In this document: piece by piece, positions 25,994-33,175 of the stretch
How positions within the stretch are numbered: position 1 is the stretch's first letter
Layout of the letters: each line of letters begins with the position of its first letter
Virus record (IMG/VR): IMGVR_UViG_3300044652_000025
Location: 32,001 to 96,000 of that record
Reading direction: 5' to 3' (one strand)
Origin: a virus
Lineage: Duplodnaviria; Caudoviricetes
DNA: 64,000 bases
The notes under the pieces: generated by a model
The model's database searches: none
What the model saw: the letters and a program-made list of their open reading frames with translations, nothing else
Told to the model about the DNA's origin: nothing
Translations under genes and position numbers: made by a program

Positions 25994-26701
25994 TTATCGG
26001 GCAAAGATGAGGAGCACCTCCGCCTCGGCCCGGGACTCGTGGTTGGCACCGCGCCTCATCCTGGGGGTGACGATCTCGTGGCGGGCGATGAGCGTGAAGC
26101 CGATCGACTCGCAGATCGATCGATGGGTCTCGACGACGGGCTCTCTCCGGCGCTGACCGCGGTGGGTCCGGTAGCAGTCGCTGACGTTGAGGACGAACGT
26201 CCCCGACCGGGTGAGGGGATCGTAGGGCCGCAGTACCCGATAGACCTCCTGCCAGGCGGCGTCGTGGAAGCGCCAGTAGGCGGGCTGCCAGCAGTAGAGG
26301 GTGCCGCTGTTGGCGGGATCCAGGAGCCGGGTCTCGTCGCCGGTCATCCGCCGGAGGTCGTGGGTGTAGCTCCGGCGGTGGGAGCCGTCCTTGGCCATGT
26401 GGGAGTCGGACATCCTGTTGCCGAACACCGGGCTCACCATGACCGCGTCGATGCTCTCGTCCTCGAAGGGGAGGGCCAGGGCGTTGCCCACCCGGGTGTG
26501 GGGGTGACAGGCCGCCCACTCCGGCTCGATCTCGATACCGATGGTCTCCCGCCCGGCCTGGGCCAGGTCATGGACGCGTCCGATGCCCGCCATGGGGTCG
26601 AGGACGACGCCGGTGTCGGGGAGGATCTGGTGGTTCGCGATGAAGCGGAGGATGGCCTGGCTGTACGGCGCCGGGTGGATGGGCTTGGTGGCGGTCGTCA
26701 T
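25994..26701 (-). CDS. SAM-dependent DNA amino-methyltransferase-like protein
   Basis: VLDPMAGIG, GIEIE, GNALALPF, SPVF in place of SPPY. Confidence 0.75.
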   Translation of the reverse strand: MTTATKPIHPAPYSQAILRFIANHQILPDTGVVLDPMAGIGRVHDLAQAGRETIGIEIEPEWAACHPHTRVGNALALPFEDESIDAVMVSPVFGNRMSDSHMAKDGSHRRSYTHDLRRMTGDETRLLDPANSGTLYCWQPAYWRFHDAAWQEVYRVLRPYDPLTRSGTFVLNVSDCYRTHRGQRRREPVVETHRSICESIGFTLIARHEIVTPRMRRGANHESRAEAEVLLIFAR

Positions 26702-28719
26702 CGTCTCCTCCGGGCCGGTGACGTCGGCATCCCGGGCCTGCGCCTGCCCTTGCCGAAGCCCGAGAGGGCATCGTGGGTCTCGGTCTGCTGGCCACTGTGG
26801 GGCAGGCCACCCTGGGCGGTCCCTCCCACCGGTAGCTCGGCCAGGGTCTTGCCCAGGAAGGCCGCGATCTCGGTGCCGATGAGTTCGTAGGTGCAGATGG
26901 CCAGGCAGTCACTCACGTCTTTCGTTTGTACCGGTCCTGAGGTGGGGTGGTCAACCTTGTTTGTTCCCGCCTCCTGGAGGAAGGTCAACTCCAGGTCCGC
27001 CAGTTCGTGATACGGAGCATGGACGAGTCCCAATCCCAAGGCCGTTTTAAATGTTTCATACGTCTTCCAGTTCAAAGGACCAGTAGCGTCCCGCTCGTAG
27101 ATGGTAACCCGCTTCGGGTAGTTAGCGCTACGGGCGTGCTTACGGAGACGCTGGATCAAAGCCACAGAGTTCCACTGGTCGAAGGACAATTCGTTCGGCA
27201 TGAAGGCGTCCATGTCGACGATGATGTCGTCGGCGATGGCGTCGTAGTCGATCTCGTGGTTCTCGTAGTCACCCGGCAGCCAGGCGTGGATCTTGTCGAA
27301 GACGACGTGCGGGAGACCGCGGTCGTCGTGCCCGGCGACGTGGGCGATGGCCCAGCCGAAGTTGGCGCCGCTCTTGGACGGGTCGCCGTGGGCTCGGTAG
27401 GTCCGACTCAGGATCCCTTGGTGCTGCATCGTCAGGACGTCGCTCTCGGTCGGCCAGGGCTTCCACATGTCAGCGATCCGGTCCGGCCGGAGGTACGCGT
27501 CCAAGACGCTGGCCCAATGAGCGCGCCGCTCGACGGCGAACGTTTCAGGATTGGCAGCTTCTAACCGCTGCATCTCGGCGTCGAAGGTCTGGACCGCGTT
27601 GCGCAGGGCCGGGAAGAAGATCGGCCGCGACACCTGGGGGACGGCGTCGCGGATGTGGGCCGGGGGTGGGATCACCCGCTCCGGCCGGGCCTCCAGCCGG
27701 TGGTGAGGATCCGCGGTGCGCTCCCAGTCAACGTAGGTGTCCCAGCTTGCCAACTGGGCCATGAAGAGGGCCGGGAAGCTCGGCTTGCCGTCCTCATCGT
27801 GCTGGAGCGCCTTGCTGTAGTTGTCGAAGAACGCCCCCAGCCGCTGCCACGGCGACGACGCCTCCCACAGGAAGCCCCACTGCTGGAACTGGTCGAGGGA
27901 CGGGACGGCCGACTCGTAGACCTCGCTGGCGTCGGCCTTGGCCACGGCCCGGACGACGTGCGCCATCTCATCGAAGAACAACATCGCGCTGGCCGGGCCT
28001 CGGGCGGCCATCGTCGTTGCCTCTCTGGCCTCGATGATGAAGGTGGCCATGTCGGCCTCGGTCCCGATGCCTCGGTCGTGGCGGTCGAGCATCCTGATGA
28101 AGTCGTGCGGGGCGTAGACGGTGAAGCTCTCCCCCAGGACCCGGCTGATGTAGGGAGCGAAGCACGGCGCCCCGACGATGACGTTGTTCAAGTCCTTCCA
28201 CTGATGCGCTCGGGCCTGCTCCCGCTTACCGGCGAAGGCCATGGTGGCGATCTGCTTGTCGCGGTCGATTCCGAAGTGACCTTGCGGGTCTCCGAGCGAC
28301 AGGTAGTTCCACAAGACGTACGACCCGGCCAGGGCACCGAGGTAGCCCTTGCCGCCACGTCGACCGATGGGCAGGACCACCTCTCTGAACCACTTCCGGC
28401 CCTCGGCCTTGTTGATCTCGATCCGCTCGAAAATGTCAACAACGAGACCGTTGTTGCCCTCGCCCCGTTCGTCAGCCGACTCCCGGAACTTCGTCGTCCA
28501 TTCGTCAACGACCTCGTAGTCGTAGTCGGTCAGCAGGTCGTCACGAAGGAAAATCAACTTCAACAATGTGGCTTGCCTCGGGTACAGCGTCCGGCCCAAA
28601 TATGCGTCCGAGAGAATGAACTCAATCGGGTCCGGGACCTGAGCCTCAAATCCCGCGACGAGTTCAAAGACCCGCAGGGGGTCGAGGTCGGGCATGAATC
28701 GTCGGGTCCTGGCGGGCAT
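26698..28719 (-). CDS. terL: terminase large subunit
   Basis: YPRQ, GRRGGKG Walker A, LFFDE Walker B, HGDP / FDQWN / KDVSD RNaseH-type nuclease residues. Confidence 0.88.
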   Translation of the reverse strand: MPARTRRFMPDLDPLRVFELVAGFEAQVPDPIEFILSDAYLGRTLYPRQATLLKLIFLRDDLLTDYDYEVVDEWTTKFRESADERGEGNNGLVVDIFERIEINKAEGRKWFREVVLPIGRRGGKGYLGALAGSYVLWNYLSLGDPQGHFGIDRDKQIATMAFAGKREQARAHQWKDLNNVIVGAPCFAPYISRVLGESFTVYAPHDFIRMLDRHDRGIGTEADMATFIIEAREATTMAARGPASAMLFFDEMAHVVRAVAKADASEVYESAVPSLDQFQQWGFLWEASSPWQRLGAFFDNYSKALQHDEDGKPSFPALFMAQLASWDTYVDWERTADPHHRLEARPERVIPPPAHIRDAVPQVSRPIFFPALRNAVQTFDAEMQRLEAANPETFAVERRAHWASVLDAYLRPDRIADMWKPWPTESDVLTMQHQGILSRTYRAHGDPSKSGANFGWAIAHVAGHDDRGLPHVVFDKIHAWLPGDYENHEIDYDAIADDIIVDMDAFMPNELSFDQWNSVALIQRLRKHARSANYPKRVTIYERDATGPLNWKTYETFKTALGLGLVHAPYHELADLELTFLQEAGTNKVDHPTSGPVQTKDVSDCLAICTYELIGTEIAAFLGKTLAELPVGGTAQGGLPHSGQQTETHDALSGFGKGRRRPGMPTSPARRRR

Positions 28720-28740: not shown

Positions 28741-28767
28741 CGGTCGAGGGCTTCATACCCTCGACCG
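28741..28767 (-). terminator. intrinsic terminator closing the RAMP-array operon
   Basis: 10-bp perfect stem CGGTCGAGGG/CCCTCGACCG followed by TTTCACTT on minus strand. Confidence 0.85.
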
Positions 28768-28778
28768 CTCCACCCATG

Positions 28779-29333
28779 ACTGCCATGCCGAACTCGAACC
28801 TGACGAGCATCGCCGCGCCAAGCCCCGCCGACCCACGCCTTGACTGCCGAGTCGAGACCAGCCTACGCCCGCCTAACCGCGGCGAACCCAGCCCTGACTG
28901 CCGAGCCATTCCACGTCCAGACACGCCGTGCCATGACTGCCGCGGCACGACCCGCCTCTCCTAGCCTACGCGTGCCTCACCTCTCCGAGGCTGCCGGGCC
29001 AGGCCCAACCATCGCTGGTCAAGCCCAGCCAAGCCGCACCCTGACTGCCTCGCCCTAACGGGCCATGCCTGTCCATGCACCTCCTCAACGGGCCGTACCT
29101 TGCCACTGCTGCCAGGCCAACGCCTGCCGTGATGTACCAAGCCCTGCCGAGACGAGACCGTCCCCTCCACACCGCTACTGCCCTGACCTACCGGGCCTAG
29201 CCTCTACACGCCCGTCCTAGCCATTGCTGGCGAGCCGAGCCGAACCGCTCCATGACCTTGCGCACTTGCCCTGCCATACCAAGACTGCCGAGCCTTGCCG
29301 CGGCCTGCCTAGCCTCACCAAACCGAGGCTGCC
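28779..29333 (-). ncRNA. guide-RNA array 2: 10 units of GGCA+(GGY-like NN)n
   Basis: Delimiter spacings (+ strand order) 64,54,39,54,54,64,69,49,58,44; 5-nt periodicity; no credible ORF. Confidence 0.85.
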
Positions 29334-29337
29334 ATTC

Positions 29338-29364
29338 ACCGGGGCCGGTGGCTCCGACCCCGGT
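29338..29364 (-). other. RNA hairpin between accessory gene and array 2
   Basis: 11-bp stem whose one mismatch is a G-U pair only on the minus-strand transcript. Confidence 0.7.
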
Positions 29365-29370
29365 CGCTGG

Positions 29371-29871
29371 CTAGACCGCCTCGGCCTCTCCGTCGTCGTC
29401 GTCGCGGTCGATGTCATCGAGCGCGGCCCAGACTCCGGCCAGAGCACTGAGGTGCCGGTACCGGCGCCGCAGAGCCTGGAGGGCGACCAACGCATCTTTG
29501 AGCATCTGATTTCTCAGATCCTCGCGGTCGACCACCGTCTGAGTGTTGGTGTAGCCACGGTCACCGTCCTTCCGGACCGAGACGAAGGCGACGATGGGTT
29601 CGTCACTGCCCTCGACCACGATGCGGATGTCTCTGATGATCCGGCGAGCCTGACTCAGCCAATACTGCTCGGCGGCGTGGTTTTTGTCCCACCCACGCCA
29701 GTCGGCCATGTTGTGCAACGGCGAGTTGCGCTTCTTGGCCTCGGCTACCAACGCGTGCGGGGTGCAGACACCGTCGCGGTCCTCGATCTTCTTGATCTCG
29801 CCGTAGACGATGTTGGCGTCGACACCATGGCTCTGCTTCCACGACACGAACGCTGTCGGTTCTCCACTCAT
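29371..29871 (-). CDS. accessory protein of the RAMP-array system, 166 aa
   Basis: AAAGGAGG RBS; TP..LV..A...SPLH...W....AAEQY.L.QARRII motif; sits between the two arrays. Confidence 0.85.
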   Translation of the reverse strand: MSGEPTAFVSWKQSHGVDANIVYGEIKKIEDRDGVCTPHALVAEAKKRNSPLHNMADWRGWDKNHAAEQYWLSQARRIIRDIRIVVEGSDEPIVAFVSVRKDGDRGYTNTQTVVDREDLRNQMLKDALVALQALRRRYRHLSALAGVWAALDDIDRDDDDGEAEAV

Positions 29872-29893
29872 TTTTCAATCACCTCCTTTCGAT

Positions 29894-30929
29894 CCTGCCG
29901 TGACAAGCCAAACCGATCCGGGCCAAGCCCAAACGGGCCTAACCGCGCCAAGCCACGACTGCCGTTACCAACCCGGACCTGCCTGGCCGAACCTGACCGG
30001 GACGAGCCTTGCCTGGACTGGCGAGGCTTGCCGGGCCGTAACACGACTAGACCGGCCTATCCCTGCCCTGACTGCCATGCCTAAACCTGCCCTGGCTTGC
30101 CATGACGACCTAGCCCTACCACTGCTGCCGTGACCAGCCTGGCCGGTCCACGACGCTCCTAGCCGAGCCGTACCTTGCCTCGTCTGCCACGCCCTGCGAA
30201 GCCATCGCTTGCCCATCCTGACCATGGCTGCCGAGCCGGGACCGTCCCAAGCCGGGCACACCTAGCCACTCCATGACTGCCAAACCGGGACCTGCCTGGC
30301 CTGGACACACCTGGCCGAGCCGACCCGCACCTTGCCACTGCTGCCATGACGAACCGCTCCATGCCGTTGCGTGCCGCGACCTGCCAAGCCTTGGCGAGGC
30401 TGCCGAGACCTGACTGGCGACGCCAAGCCGGGCCTGGACATCCCGCGCAACGCCCTGACTCGACTGCCCTGCCAAACCCATCCGGGCCGTGACATGCCAC
30501 CCGAGCCGTGCCTGGGCTGCCGTGCCGCACCTGACCTCGACGGGACCAGACCATCCTGGCCCAGCCAAGCGCAGACCCGCCTCGACTGCCCTACCTCGCC
30601 AAGCCCTGCCTCGGCCCGACCCGGAGATCCAGGCCGAGGCTGGCTGGCCACACCGTGCCTCGACGCTGCGAGACATGCACCGCCTAGCCCATCCTCTACT
30701 GCCATGACCGGCCATGCGTTGCCACGGCGAGCCTTGGCCGGACCGGACCTGACGATCCAAGCCCAACCATGGCTGCCGCTCCACTGCTGCCCTGACAAGC
30801 CTTGGCTCGACGTGCCCCTGCGGGAGTCGCCGGGCCAAGCCACTGCTGCCATGCCGTGACCCGCCATGACATACCGGGGCGCACACCGCCCATACATGAC
30901 CGGGCGAGCCGAGCCATGCCGTGTCTGCC
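29894..30929 (-). ncRNA. guide-RNA array 1: 18 units of GGCA+(GGY-like NN)n
   Basis: Delimiter spacings (+ strand order) 64,59,54,53,59,44,49,64,59,64,53,69,54,59,74,14,59,79. Confidence 0.88.
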
Positions 30930-30954
30930 AAGGGGTCACTTACTGCTCCGGGTC

Positions 30955-31593
30955 CTAGTTGCTGACCTGGAACATTCCGTACGAACCGGACGCCGACTTC
31001 GGCGCCGACGGCCGCCACTCACCAACCCCACCGAGACCGGCGGCGTCGACCAGAGCGAAGACCGACGAGGCGTCGAGCATGTGCGGCAGGTACGTGACCT
31101 TGAGGATGGCCGACCACGGCCAGAAGCCAGCCCGGTAGCGGATGTCAGCGACACCCGACTCCAACCTGACCATGTCCTCACGCATGTGAGGCTCGGCCGA
31201 AATCGCCACCAGGTCGGTCCCCTCCTCGGGGTTGATGAAGAGGGCGGCCTTGGCCTGGACCATGGTCAAGCCGTCGAAGTGCCTCACGGCGCCGACGAGA
31301 GCGGCCTTGAAGGCGGTGGCGGGGATGGCGCAGCGGCCGTCGGGGAGCCGGTAGATGGACGACTCGTAGTCGGCCTGCGGGTCCTTCGGCTCCTTCTTCG
31401 GCTTGGTGCCGCGAGCCATCTGGCTCTCCAACATCATTCTCTTGGCCTTCTCGGACCAGCGGTGGGTGATCAACTCGGAGGTGCCCTCGATCGGGACCTC
31501 GATGGTGACGCGCTCCAGGCGCTTCAGGACGACGGTGGGACCCTCGGTGACGCCAGCGACCTTCCCGGCGCCATTGGTTTTGGTCATTGCCAT
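30955..31593 (-). CDS. Cas7/RAMP-like RNA-binding protein (Vipr-like), 212 aa
   Basis: IEGTSELITH first strand, IPATAFKAAL helix, C-terminal Gly loop GLGGVGEWRP...GSYGMF; ATG 31593 with CAGGAG RBS. Confidence 0.8.
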   Translation of the reverse strand: MAMTKTNGAGKVAGVTEGPTVVLKRLERVTIEVPIEGTSELITHRWSEKAKRMMLESQMARGTKPKKEPKDPQADYESSIYRLPDGRCAIPATAFKAALVGAVRHFDGLTMVQAKAALFINPEEGTDLVAISAEPHMREDMVRLESGVADIRYRAGFWPWSAILKVTYLPHMLDASSVFALVDAAGLGGVGEWRPSAPKSASGSYGMFQVSN

Positions 31594-31633
31594 TGGTTCT
31601 GCTCCTGTAGTCGGAAGTGAACTGTTGCAAGTA

Positions 31634-31661
31634 ACCTTAGCACGTATAACGGGTCCGTCAA
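31634..31661 (-). promoter_or_regulatory. promoter of RAMP-array operon TTGACG-N16-TAAGGT with extended -10 TG
   Basis: 40 nt upstream of start codon; TGCTAAGGT shared with promoter at 37207. Confidence 0.7.
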
Positions 31662-31735
31662 CCGGGGTCCTTCGGACATATGGGCGCGAAAATGCCCCCT
31701 CCACTGGGGAAGGGGGCGAGATCCTGTCTTCTCTG

Positions 31736-32104
31736 CTAGGCGGCGTCAGCGAAGGCGGTGGCCATCGGGGTCCCGGCGTAGGCGGCGTTGGCGTCGTCGG
31801 TGCCGACCGTCACCCGGGGCGGATCGATCCCGCACGGCCACTCGGCGGTGATCCCCCAGGGGCGGCAGTCGCAGCCGCCGCAGCGGTAGTCGCCGTCCTC
31901 CCAGCCGCCGGTGTTGATGAAGTAGTGGGTCTTGCGGTTGGCCTCGATCTCCTCGGCGGTCCCGGGGAACGACATCGGCATGTTGACGGCCACAAGGCTC
32001 CTTTCGAGCGGGGAAGAGAAGGAAACCCCGGGACGCTTCTGATCCGAGCAGGAACGGGCGGCTTGGCCCGCACTTCCCCGGAGCTTCCTTCTCCCCTCCG
32101 ACAC
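31736..32104 (-). CDS. Cys-containing hypothetical protein (true start ~31990)
   Basis: CGGCDC..WPC; AAGGAG RBS. Confidence 0.65.
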   Translation of the reverse strand: MSEGRRKLRGSAGQAARSCSDQKRPGVSFSSPLERSLVAVNMPMSFPGTAEEIEANRKTHYFINTGGWEDGDYRCGGCDCRPWGITAEWPCGIDPPRVTVGTDDANAAYAGTPMATAFADAA

Positions 32105-32194: not shown

Positions 32195-33175
32195 TTACTT
32201 CTTCTTGCGGCTCTTCGGGATCGGGAGCTTCTTGACGTCGCTCCCGGCGATGATCCCGGCGTTGTAGTGCTTGGCCAGGGCGTCGGCGATGGCCCGCGGC
32301 TTGCTGGTGTAGTGCTCCTTCGAGTTGCGGATCGGGTCGGCCAGCGCCGATGGCGGCCACTGCCGGAGCGTCACGATGAGGTGACCCTCGTCGAACAGCG
32401 GGGTCTTGACCAGGCCGCCCTGCTCGTCGACCGACAGCTTGGTGTAGCGCCGGACGAACTCCCCGACGGACTGGAGCGTGAGGTACGCCCAGGCGTCCGG
32501 ATACTGCTGCTGGACCCAGGACTTGTTGATGACCCGGAAGACCGTGGCCAGCCCGTCCTCGCCGATGGTGGCGTACATCTTGCGGAGCGCCTTGACGGCG
32601 GTGATGCCACCGAGACCCACGGTCAGGCCGTTGTCGGAGGCGATCCGGTCGACGGCCACCGCCTCGGGGTCACCGGCCTTGAGGTCGGTCTTGTAGAGGT
32701 CCGTCGGCGAGAAGCTCGTCCGGCCCCGGTGGATGGTGCCGGTCTGGTTGGCCTCGGCACCGACGCTCATACCCTTGTGGACCCAGCAGGGCACCTGCAT
32801 GTCCGGGTTGATGATCTGGGCCACGATGGTCCGGTGCTGGCCCTCGGGCGACCAGAGGCTGGCGTCGGGACGCTCGTTGACGTCGATGGGCTCGAAGGCG
32901 TAGGGGTCGAAGTTCCTGATCAGATCCTTGGCCTTCTTCAGGTTGATTCGCCGCTGGTAGCTCTTGTCGACGTTGATGTCCCCGGCCCGGACGTAGCGGA
33001 GTTCGCCGGTGAGCTTCATCTCCGCCAGTTCCTGGCGGCGCTCCTCGGGGATCTCCTTCTCGTACCAGTCGCGCAGGGCCTTGAGCTTGTCCTCCTCGGA
33101 CAGTTCGGTCCGGGGGCGCCTCGGGGTGGGAGTCTCCTCCTCGTCCGCGAGGTCGAGGTCGTCGTCTTCACTCAT
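32195..33175 (-). CDS. ParB/Srx-like N-terminal domain protein
   Basis: VDKSYQR..., IDVNER, EGQHR motif. Confidence 0.8.
   Translation of the reverse strand: MSEDDDLDLADEEETPTPRRPRTELSEEDKLKALRDWYEKEIPEERRQELAEMKLTGELRYVRAGDINVDKSYQRRINLKKAKDLIRNFDPYAFEPIDVNERPDASLWSPEGQHRTIVAQIINPDMQVPCWVHKGMSVGAEANQTGTIHRGRTSFSPTDLYKTDLKAGDPEAVAVDRIASDNGLTVGLGGITAVKALRKMYATIGEDGLATVFRVINKSWVQQQYPDAWAYLTLQSVGEFVRRYTKLSVDEQGGLVKTPLFDEGHLIVTLRQWPPSALADPIRNSKEHYTSKPRAIADALAKHYNAGIIAGSDVKKLPIPKSRKKK

What the first reader, a model, noticed from the sequence alone, without database searches (positions are those of the whole stretch)
28741..31661. Phage RNA-guided system: Cas7/RAMP-like protein, accessory gene and two arrays of 5-nt-periodic guide units
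Seen: one minus-strand operon of promoter (31634-61), 212-aa RAMP-like gene, array (30929-29894, 18 units), 166-aa gene, hairpin, array (29333-28779, 10 units) and terminator. Each unit in RNA sense is GGCA (occasionally GCCA) followed by n pentamers of a semi-constant triplet (mostly GGC/GGU, also GUC, GGA, GCC) plus a variable NN. 25 of 28 unit lengths are exactly 5n+4; the other three (53, 53, 58) are one base short. There are no CRISPR direct repeats, and no cas1/cas2 or nuclease in the operon. Established: Cas7/RAMP proteins polymerise on guide RNA with a fixed nucleotide step. Inference: each subunit binds one pentamer and displays NN for target pairing. From memory this architecture matches the recently reported VIPR (GGY/NN) phage systems; I cannot verify that, and this split-array locus may be a new variant.
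Basis: partly seen in the sequence, partly recalled or inferred. Interest (0 to 1): 0.98.

Follow-up and report, generated by a model that had tools for sequence, protein, structure and literature searches.

The report
Phage VIPR system with 28 guides
This uncultured high-GC phage carries a VIPR locus, a recently described phage RNA-guided gene-silencing system, with an unusually large set of 28 guide RNAs; it is a clear new member of a known family rather than a new kind of system.

Summary
Two minus-strand intergenic tracts (30929-29894 and 29333-28779) consist of YNNGG (= GGY/NN) pentamers. They fall into 18 + 10 units, and 25 of the 28 are 5n+4 nt long. Nothing else in the 64-kb window shows this 5-nt period.

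The 212-aa protein has a Cas7/Csm3 fold (Foldseek E 3e-6; VIA Z 10.4). Its only sequence match in the PDB is the SUSP1 Vipr protein (profile E 1.9e-6), and it keeps that protein's RNA-contact residues.

VIPR is real and published in 2026 bioRxiv preprints, which also mention "staggered" arrays whose guides overlap by 1 nt. That equals the 5n+4 rule.

Of 164 homologous loci, 147 carry a co-oriented pentamer array, mostly with 5n+4 units. A homolog of the 166-aa accessory gene sits beside vipr in 72 of them. Split arrays are common, so the "new variant" idea is not supported.

Under the published skip-one-base rule, two guides and one solo guide elsewhere in the genome nearly match, in frame, the phage's own vipr, terminase and a virion gene. 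This points to related rival phages as targets. No perfect target was found.

Earlier scan notes cover this same stretch only, not other DNA.

The parts
31634..31661 (-). Putative promoter of the VIPR operon (TTGACG, 16 nt, TAAGGT). It lies just downstream of a terminator-like hairpin that closes the preceding gene.
   Evidence: Read from the sequence. It was not found by the strict sigma-70 consensus scan. The upstream hairpin at 31690-31745 folds at -22 kcal/mol, z -1.8. Unverified.
30955..31593 (-). vipr: a 212-aa minimal RAMP (Cas7-like) protein and the presumed filament-forming vrRNA-binding subunit.
   Evidence: The AlphaFold2 model has pLDDT 83. Foldseek PDB top hits are Csm3/Cas7 at E 3e-6, with 85 hits at E<=1e-3. 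VIA-align gives Z 10.4 to Csm3 and 10.3 to Cmr4. Profile A1 matches only one PDB sequence, SUSP1 Vipr 36pp_D, at E 1.9e-6. The protein hits phrog_4652 at 1.9e-35. It has relatives in 2875 clusters at 50% identity.
29894..30929 (-). vrRNA array 1: 18 head-to-tail ('staggered') guide units of YNNGG pentamers delimited by GGCA|G[C/T].
   Evidence: parse and unit lengths; specificity; no Rfam or ribozyme match.
30847..30925 (-). Guide 1 (15 NN). Read antisense it spells [IM]VP[IM][IM]GAP[HQ][IM]R[DE][DE][IM]V, the most conserved Vipr motif.
   Evidence: It matches the phage's own vipr at 24/30 nt (0 of 500 permuted guides reach this). The best match in other phages' vipr genes is 26/30 nt.
29371..29871 (-). 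vap-type accessory gene of 166 aa. The N-terminal domain looks weakly winged-helix-like and is followed by a long helical hairpin.
   Evidence: Homologs sit beside vipr in Donkeykong gp50, ODay gp20, UmaThurman gp41 and Cy-LDV1 g33, and in 72 of 164 loci overall. It hits phrog_15946 at 3.7e-23. The model has pLDDT 93. Fold matches are only weak winged-helix hits (Foldseek E>=0.25, VIA Z 5-5.9). It is not homologous to SUSP1 vap1.
29340..29366 (-). Strong hairpin between vap and array 2. It has no U tract and its role is unknown (a stabiliser, a processing site or a partial terminator).
   Evidence: -31.8 kcal/mol, z -5.3.
28779..29333 (-). vrRNA array 2: 10 staggered guide units.
28785..28848 (-). 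Last guide (12 NN). Read antisense it spells [IM][DE]RL[DE]SA[KN]P[DE]T[FL], a terminase motif.
   Evidence: It matches the phage's own terL at 21/24 nt (0 of 500 permutations reach this).
28741..28779 (-). Terminator-like hairpin (17-bp stem followed by UUUC) that closes the operon just before terL.
   Evidence: -33.8 kcal/mol, z -6.5. The strict terminator scan did not call it.
31169..31213 (-). Near-cognate site of guide 1 in the phage's own vipr (LVAISAEPHMREDMV). 10 of 15 NN match, with the skipped base at the wobble position.
27539..27574 (-). Near-cognate site of the last guide in the phage's own terL (MQRLEAANPETF). 9 of 12 NN match, and one mismatch is a rare synonymous TTA Leu codon.
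   Evidence: TTA makes up 0.67% of Leu codons, and local GC3 is 0.5 against 0.85 for the whole gene.

Best explanation
This is a VIPR (Viral Interference Programmable Repeat) locus of the staggered-array kind, carried by an uncultured ~151-kb high-GC phage.

Proposed mechanism:
1. One minus-strand operon expresses Vipr (a minimal Cas7-like RAMP), a small accessory protein (vap-type, possibly DNA-binding) and two long precursor RNAs.
2. Each precursor is a head-to-tail chain of guide units built from GGY/NN pentamers.
3. Vipr protomers polymerise one per pentamer. They bury each GGY and expose each NN.
4. At every unit boundary (GGCA|G-Y) the pentamer register slips by -1. This ends one filament and starts the next, so each unit of roughly 39-79 nt becomes one guide of 7-15 NN.
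5. The RNP binds double-stranded DNA whose sequence reads NNxNNx..., skipping one base that is usually the codon wobble position, and silences transcription.
6. The targets are genes of competing mobile elements, including closely related phages. Guide 1 is aimed at the conserved MREDMV motif of vipr genes and the last guide at a terminase motif. The phage's own copies differ at 25-33% of the NN and so should escape.

Shown here: the anatomy, the fold, the homology to SUSP1 Vipr, the conserved vipr-vap-array synteny and the significant in-frame near-self matches.
Inferred from the preprints by homology: filament assembly, DNA binding and silencing.
My inference: the frame slip as the guide delimiter, and rival relatives as the targets.
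For: Fold: Foldseek top hits are all Csm3/Cas7 (E 3e-6), and VIA-align gives Z 10.4 with nearly all of the top 35 being CRISPR RAMPs.

Sequence: the only PDB match is SUSP1 Vipr, at E 2 with the single sequence and 1.9e-6 with profile A1. The alignment pairs R154 with thumb R138, and E192-W193-R194 (in GVGEWRP) with G-loop D177-W178-R179. The cryo-EM preprint says these residues hold G1, G2 and Y3. R154, W193 and R194 are invariant in A1.

Comparative evidence:
- 147 of 164 homolog loci have a 5-periodic tract.
- All 191 tracts lie on the vipr strand.
- 734 of 1124 inner units are 5n+4, most commonly 54, 49 and 59 nt.
- A vap homolog is adjacent in 72 loci.

Literature: VIPR, the GGY/NN code, the 1-nt skip rule, staggered arrays, guides that target vipr and solo vrRNAs are all described.

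Target rule: with a 1-nt skip, guide 1 hits the phage's own vipr at 24/30 nt, against 18-20 for skips of 0, 2 or 3. The last guide hits the phage's own terL at 21/24 nt. For both, 0 of 500 permuted guides score as high, and both sites are in frame with the skipped base at the wobble position.
Against: - No expression, processing or binding data exist for this locus or for any staggered array. The preprint states that only the ribozyme-type and single-vrRNA architectures were confirmed by sRNA-seq.
- No target with >=80% NN match was found for any of the 27 guides tested: own genome, ~850 kb of homolog loci, six exact-pattern scans of IMG/VR and one of genome contigs.
- The second G of GGY is only 63% conserved here, against 75-85% in the four phage-record homologs parsed.
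- The homology to SUSP1 Vipr covers only the C-terminal quarter at sequence level.
- The vap is not homologous to SUSP1 vap1 and has no significant fold match.
- I could not see the preprint's figures or supplementary tables, so the type assignment (I-VII) is unknown.
Confidence: 0.85

Rival explanations
1. This is a VIPR relative, but of a type or variant that the published seven-type scheme does not cover. The guides have no tail and are delimited only by a -1 register slip with a degenerate first pentamer (G-Y-N-N-N). The vap family differs from vap1, and the guide repertoire is unusually large.
For: SUSP1 (type II) vrRNAs have a leader, a pentamer tract and a structured tail of about 40 nt, with no staggering, and SUSP1 vap1 is unrelated to this vap. 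The boundary GGCA|G[C/T] differs from the commoner GGCA|GG. The 28 units exceed the maximum of 24 seen in the other 164 loci. The main texts of the preprints never mention actinobacteria or their phages, and the library search returned no listed paper that pairs the VIPR phrase with those terms.
Against: The preprint explicitly describes staggered arrays with a 1-nt overlap, six vap families and degenerate repeat consensuses. Its PSI-BLAST on NR (8 iterations) very likely captured the GenBank mycobacteriophage homologs. The window-type boundary is shared by at least 27 other loci, so it is a subclade habit and not unique to this locus.
Confidence: 0.12
2. The guides act mainly on the phage's own genes. 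Partial matches would tune vipr, terL and virion-gene expression (autoregulation or timing) rather than attack rivals.
For: The only significant matches found are to the phage's own vipr, its own terL and, for the solo unit, its own virion gene.
Against: These matches reach only 67-75% of NN, below the >=80% the preprint used for natural targets, and the preprint found no self-targeting. Disturbing NN pairing abolished silencing in SUSP1. The phage's own terL site carries a very rare synonymous TTA exactly at a guide position, which looks more like avoidance than like use. The other 25 guides have no self-match above chance.
Confidence: 0.08
3. The system targets RNA (mRNA) rather than DNA in this clade.
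For: The NN composition of the window's guides fits the reverse complement of codon positions 1-2 better than the sense orientation (summed log-likelihood ratio +48 nats; 23 of 27 guides). All three decoded near-matches are antisense to the coding strand.
Against: Guides in the other 164 loci look sense-oriented overall (GA>TC, AA>TT, GG>CC). So the family uses both strands, as expected for dsDNA binding and as shown for SUSP1. The composition test is indirect and could reflect constraints on the RNA itself.
Confidence: 0.04
4. The tracts are not guides at all. They would be DNA-level repeats (for example a binding array for the neighbouring ParB-like protein, or G-rich structural DNA) or odd coding sequence.
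For: A ParB-like / DUF6551 gene lies just upstream at 32195-33175. Long ORFs run through the arrays, and GenBank annotators called such arrays as CDS in Donkeykong and UmaThurman.
Against: A period of 5 is incompatible with coding, and lag-3 identity is low at 0.21. The arrays track vipr, not ParB, across 147 loci and always lie on the vipr strand, which argues for an RNA-level role. The same motif is the proven Vipr ligand in SUSP1.
Confidence: 0.01

Closest known systems
VIPR systems with staggered vrRNA arrays (bioRxiv 10.64898/2026.04.26.720920, fig. S18 legend)
   Same: A minimal RAMP gene and a small accessory gene with no cas genes, in a viral genome. GGY/NN pentamer guides are arranged head to tail, so that the end of one guide is the start of the next with a 1-nt overlap. 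That overlap is exactly the 5n+4 unit rule found here and in most homolog loci.
   Different: In this locus and about 27 related loci, the base after the shared G is C/T rather than G, so the first pentamer of each unit is degenerate. I could not see the figure, the type assignment or the member list. Staggered arrays had not been confirmed experimentally in the preprint.
Type II VIPR of Escherichia phage SUSP1 (PDB 36pp; KT454805 28031-29061)
   Same: The Vipr proteins are homologous (profile E 1.9e-6) with conserved thumb Arg and G-loop [D/E]-W-R. The gene order is vipr then vap, with vrRNAs on both sides. Guides that target vipr and solo vrRNAs are known in this clade.
   Different: SUSP1 has 4 vrRNAs, each with its own leader and a structured 3' tail of about 40 nt (with a pseudoknot), and they are not staggered. 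Its vap1 is unrelated to the vap here. The host phylum and GC content also differ.
CRISPR-Cas class 1 backbone subunits (Csm3/Cmr4/Cas7)
   Same: The RRM/RAMP fold with G-loop and thumb (Foldseek E 3e-6; VIA Z 10.4), and polymerisation along a guide RNA with a fixed step (established knowledge for Cas7).
   Different: There are no direct repeats or spacers, and no Cas5, Cas6, Cas10, Cas3, Cas1 or Cas2. The step is 5 nt rather than 6 nt, the guide is discontiguous (2 of every 5 nt), and the system is encoded by a phage.

Membership tests
VIPR | A Vipr protein: a minimal single-RRM RAMP with a glycine-rich loop and a thumb. | tested here: met
   The model has pLDDT 83. Top structural matches are Csm3/Cas7/Cmr4. 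A Gly-rich C-terminal loop GLGGVGEWRP is present.
VIPR | Sequence homology to an experimentally characterised Vipr, including the residues that hold GGY. | tested here: met
   Profile A1 against the PDB returns a single hit, SUSP1 Vipr 36pp_D, at E 1.9e-6. R154 aligns with R138, and E192/W193/R194 with D177/W178/R179. The aligned stretch covers only about 50 residues.
VIPR | Adjacent non-coding tracts of tandem GGY/NN (YNNGG) pentamers with conserved GGY and hypervariable NN. | tested here: met
   Position frequencies are G .93, G .63 and C/T .84, with NN close to uniform. There are 28 units. The second G is more degenerate than in the relatives.
VIPR | A small vipr-accessory (vap) gene in the operon, with no cas genes and no CRISPR array. 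| tested here: met
   The 166-aa gene is syntenic with vipr in 72 loci. The neighbours are a ParB-like gene, a 122-aa ORF and terL. Which of vap1-6 it corresponds to could not be determined.
VIPR | Encoded by a virus or provirus. | tested here: met
   G000 is a virus record of 151,490 bp. terL is adjacent. Homologs occur in Mycobacterium and Gordonia phages and in a cyanophage.
VIPR | vrRNAs are expressed, processed to unit length and co-purify with Vipr. | not testable with these tools
   This needs sRNA-seq or a pull-down. The only indirect support is that all 191 arrays are co-oriented with vipr.
VIPR | Target recognition by the 1-nt skip (NNx) rule on DNA. | tested here: inconclusive
   Two guides and one solo guide give significant in-frame near-matches only under the 1-nt skip. 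No target with >=80% NN match was found anywhere I could search.
VIPR, staggered-array architecture | Consecutive vrRNAs share 1 nt, so the pentamer register shifts by -1 at each boundary (units of 5n+4). | tested here: met
   25 of 28 units here are 5n+4, as are 734 of 1124 inner units in the homolog loci. The feature is defined only from the fig. S18 legend.
VIPR type II (SUSP1-like) | Separate vrRNAs, each with a conserved structured 3' tail, and a vap1 accessory gene. | tested here: not met
   There is no tail between units. No Rfam or structured element was found. vap1 is not homologous to this vap.
CRISPR-Cas | A repeat-spacer array plus cas genes (Cas1/Cas2, Cas5/6, an effector nuclease). 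| tested here: not met
   Tandem-repeat and phase analyses find no direct repeats of CRISPR size. None of the five genes scanned in or next to the operon matches a Cas family in Pfam or PHROGs.

The most novel reading that the evidence does not exclude
This actinophage clade may be a VIPR lineage that the published types do not cover, with three features of its own. First, guides have no tail and no ribozyme, and are delimited purely by a -1 slip of the pentamer register. Second, large repertoires (up to 28 guides here) are aimed at the most conserved protein motifs of close relatives' essential genes: vipr, terminase and a virion protein. Third, the carrier recodes its own copies to stay immune, for example with the rare TTA Leu codon in terL. 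If so, this would be a kin-exclusion system among related lytic phages.
Probability: 0.15. Interest if true: 0.6.

Novelty: new member of a known kind. Interest (0 to 1): 0.4.

Why it matters
VIPR was described only in 2026, and its staggered-array form has not been confirmed experimentally. This locus and its relatives give that form a well-resolved anatomy:
- the unit rule is 5n+4;
- the boundary is GGCA|G;
- there is no tail and no ribozyme;
- typical guides are 44-64 nt.

The same vipr-vap-array module sits in isolated, lab-tractable phages of Mycobacterium smegmatis and Gordonia terrae. There the arrays are currently annotated as hypothetical proteins. The staggered architecture and its processing could therefore be tested directly in standard hosts, and those genome annotations can be corrected.

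The near-self matches also suggest that VIPR is used between close relatives, with recoding of the phage's own genes as the immunity mechanism.

None of this changes the known picture of VIPR. It extends that picture to high-GC actinophages.

Tried and rejected
**Closest relatives.**
- Megablast of the locus against the phage collection found no match.
- terL as a query for related viral contigs found nothing.
- The large vipr-bearing contigs L047, L019, L060 and L069 have no detectable terL homolog, so they are not kin of this phage.
- The metagenome scan gave no vipr above 58% identity.

**Target hunting.**
- Exact 1-nt-skip patterns for six guides in IMG/VR gave five empty scans. The sixth gave one hit that matches only the 9 NN demanded and none of the remaining 5 fully, in an unannotatable ORF, so I treat it as chance.
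- The 10-NN core of guide 1 in 185k prokaryote genomes gave 3 hits, about the number I estimate by chance, in a glycosyltransferase-like ORF and two short ORFs. None is a vipr.
- A search among 'relatives' is not possible for a virus record.

**vap function.** Pfam had no match above its cut-offs, a PDB profile search gave nothing below E 0.07, and a word-based homolog search found only the protein itself.

**Rejected readings.** The arrays are neither coding sequence nor CRISPR (period 5, no repeats). A hammerhead-interspersed array is also rejected (no Rfam hit). The idea that the antisense NN bias is a family-wide property was rejected by the 550 guides from other loci.
Full report
**1. The observation**

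On the minus strand the region reads as follows:
- a terminator-like hairpin closing the previous gene;
- a possible promoter;
- a 212-aa ORF (30955-31593) with an AGGAG ribosome-binding site;
- a 1-kb non-coding tract;
- a 166-aa ORF (29371-29871) with an AAGGAGG site;
- a strong hairpin;
- a 0.55-kb non-coding tract;
- a 17-bp hairpin followed by UUUC, just before the terminase large-subunit gene (26698-28719).

Both tracts have a strong 5-nt period. Identity at lag 5 is 0.45 and 0.41, against 0.17-0.30 at lags that are not 5n or 5n-1. The signal at lags 9, 14, 19 and so on rises with distance, which betrays regular -1 register slips.

A phase-tracking (Viterbi) parse gives the pentamer Y-N-N-G-G. 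G1 is 93% conserved, G2 63% and Y 84% C/T, while NN is near-uniform. The parse breaks the tracts into 18 + 10 units. Each unit ends '...GG CA' and is followed by 'G[C/T]NNNGG'. Twenty-five of the 28 unit lengths are 5n+4.

Nothing else in the 64-kb window passes the periodicity threshold. The hairpins are real: -31.8 and -33.8 kcal/mol, z -5.3 and -6.5. The promoter is not verified. No Rfam family matches, so there are no hammerhead ribozymes.

**2. What it is**

A discovery preprint (bioRxiv 10.64898/2026.04.26.720920) describes phage-encoded Vipr proteins, which are minimal RAMPs, together with vrRNAs made of GGY/NN pentamers. These recognise dsDNA by pairing only the NN and skipping one target base between pairs, which silences transcription of competing mobile elements. 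A structural preprint (.720927) shows one protomer per repeat, and names thumb R138 and G-loop D177-W178-R179 as the residues holding the GGY.

The discovery preprint lists seven types and six vap families. It also lists several array architectures, among them 'staggered arrays' in which successive vrRNAs overlap by 1 nt.

The 212-aa protein fits this description.
- Its AlphaFold2 model (pLDDT 83) matches Csm3/Cas7/Cmr4 backbone subunits first and almost exclusively. Foldseek gives E 3e-6 with 85 hits at E<=1e-3. VIA-align gives Z 10.4 and 10.3.
- By sequence, its only PDB match is 'SUSP1 Vipr protein' (36pp), at E 2 alone and 1.9e-6 with a 25-member profile.
- The alignment puts invariant R154 on R138, and E192-W193-R194 (GVGEWRP) on D177-W178-R179 (GVGDWRP).

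The family is large: 2875 clusters at 50% identity and phrog_4652.

**3. Comparative evidence**

tblastn finds homologs at 45-56% identity in 27 Mycobacterium phage records (for example Donkeykong gp49, genus Cheoctovirus) and 5 Gordonia phage records. It also finds one cyanophage homolog, Cy-LDV1, at 32%.

Each of the four loci I parsed has a pentamer array next to the gene, with 5n+4 units and a GGCA|GG boundary. That boundary is literally a 1-nt overlap of 'GGCAG' with the next 'GGYNN'. In Donkeykong and UmaThurman the array is annotated as a hypothetical protein, gp48 and gp40 respectively.

I added 80 IMG/VR loci and 80 metagenome loci, for 164 in all.
- 147 of the 164 loci carry a 5-periodic tract.
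- All 191 tracts are on the vipr strand.
- 734 of 1124 inner units are 5n+4, most often 54, 49, 59, 44 and 64 nt.
- Units per locus have a median of 3 and a maximum of 24, so the 28 here are the most I saw.
- The window's boundary variant, GGCA|G[C/T], recurs in 27 loci, including the closest homologs.
- The 166-aa protein has homologs directly beside vipr in 72 loci.
- Arrays occur upstream, between the two genes, downstream, or on two sides. Cy-LDV1 has the same vipr-array-vap-array order as this locus.

The accessory protein folds confidently (pLDDT 93) but has no significant structural match. The weak hits are dominated by winged-helix DNA-binding domains, followed by a helical hairpin. 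This is compatible with the preprint's 'predicted DNA-binding' vaps, but it is not proof.

A direct look at SUSP1 (KT454805) shows how different type II is. It has four separate vrRNAs, each with a leader and a structured tail of about 40 nt, and its vap1 is unrelated. The locus is therefore VIPR but not type II. It matches the staggered architecture, and I cannot tell which numbered type that belongs to.

**4. Targets**

I extracted the NN of each unit and applied the published rule.

Against the phage's own 151-kb genome, only two of the 27 guides tested stand out.
- Guide 1 matches the phage's own vipr at 31169-31213 with 24/30 nt, against 18-20 for skips of 0, 2 or 3. None of 500 permuted guides scores as high.
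- The last guide matches the phage's own terL at 27539-27574 with 21/24 nt, and again none of 500 permuted guides scores as high.

Both matches are in frame, with the skipped base at the wobble position.
- Guide 1 spells IVPIIGAPHMREDMV, and the family consensus is LVPIxGEPxMREDMV.
- The last guide spells MERLESANPETF, and the phage's own terL reads MQRLEAANPETF.

The phage's own copies match only 67% and 75% of the NN, below the 80% threshold used in the preprint, which likewise found no self-targeting. One of the terL mismatches is a synonymous CTN-to-TTA change. TTA accounts for 0.67% of Leu codons in this genome.

In other phages' vipr genes, guide 1 reaches at most 26/30 nt and 11/15 NN.

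These two leads came from earlier first-reader notes. I re-derived and tested both. They fit what the October preprint reports for SUSP1-family phages: wobble-aligned guides, often aimed at rivals' vipr genes.

For the other 25 guides I found no target. This covers the homolog loci, six exact-pattern scans of IMG/VR and one scan of prokaryote genomes. The few hits behave as chance matches.

**5. Mechanism**

By homology I take the SUSP1 mechanism as the working model. Vipr protomers assemble one per pentamer, bury each GGY and present each NN. The RNP then binds NNx-patterned dsDNA and blocks transcription.

Two points are specific to this architecture, and both are my inference.
- With no tail and no ribozyme, the -1 register slip at 'GGCA|G' is probably what ends one filament and starts the next. 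Cellular RNases, or Vipr itself, would trim the unprotected junction.
- The degenerate first pentamer (G-Y-N-N-N) in this subclade may mark the 5' end of each guide.

The 14-nt mini-unit and the three units with an internal 1-nt loss look like decayed guides.

**6. Novelty and score**

The system is known. Staggered arrays, vipr-targeting guides, wobble alignment and solo vrRNAs are all described already. This locus is a new, large and well-resolved member in an uncultured actinophage.

The useful additions are these:
- the quantitative unit grammar across 165 loci;
- the link to cultivable mycobacteriophages and Gordonia phages, where arrays are mis-annotated as genes;
- the near-self matches, with a rare-codon change at a guide position in the phage's own terL.

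Interest is moderate at 0.4. The residual chance that the clade is a type outside the published scheme is about 0.15.

Noticed in passing
G000:C1:137242-137313 (+ strand; L170:1743-1814), about 41 kb beyond the window's end: A solo vrRNA-like unit of 14 YNNGG pentamers. It starts GTCGT CATGG and ends CATGG CT|GTCATGG, followed by a hairpin and TTTCG, much like the 3' end of array 2. It lies antisense inside a long minus-strand virion-protein ORF, in a stretch where that ORF's GC3 drops from about 0.9 to 0.5-0.7. Under the 1-nt skip its NN match the same gene 220 nt away (MHADYGYDTGFGQG) at 22/28 nt, in frame; the best of 200 permuted guides was 21.
   Followed up: partly
window 27539-27574 (terL codons 383-394): The terminase site that the last guide nearly matches uses the very rare Leu codon TTA (0.67% of Leu codons). 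Its local GC3 is 0.5 against 0.85 for the whole gene. The TTA fits escape from a CT-reading guide, but the low GC3 at the skipped positions is not explained by VIPR.
   Followed up: partly
L001:3480-3866 (Mycobacterium phage Donkeykong gp48); L002:4598-4921 (Gordonia phage UmaThurman gp40): These published phage records annotate staggered vrRNA arrays as hypothetical protein genes. The real vipr-vap pairs are gp49-gp50 in Donkeykong and gp39/gp41 in UmaThurman. Such lab-tractable phages could serve as models for staggered arrays.
   Followed up: partly
window 28779-30929 (all guides): The NN composition of this phage's guides fits the antisense of codon positions 1-2 (AG 26 against CT 3; TC 34 against GA 18; 23 of 27 guides). 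By contrast, 550 guides from other loci look sense-oriented. The cause is unknown; it could be a strand preference of this phage's targets or of its guide acquisition.
   Followed up: partly
window 30774-30787; 30465-30517; 30073-30125; 29228-29285: A 14-nt mini-unit with only two pentamers, and three units that each contain one 4-nt 'pentamer' (lengths 53, 53, 58). They look like decayed or recombined guides. Several units also share the same start, GCAGTGG.
   Followed up: no
window 32195-33175 (-) and 31736-32104 (-): Directly upstream of the VIPR operon lie a ParB-like / DUF6551 protein (phrog_1033, 7e-13) and a 122-aa ORF with no family match, closed by a terminator-like hairpin. The ParB-like gene is not part of the conserved vipr-vap-array module seen elsewhere.
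   Followed up: no
L047/L049:7121-8720; L060:7241-8550: Other uncultured phages, including contigs of 104-159 kb, carry staggered arrays of 21-24 units downstream of vipr-vap. Very large guide repertoires are therefore not unique to this phage.
   Followed up: no
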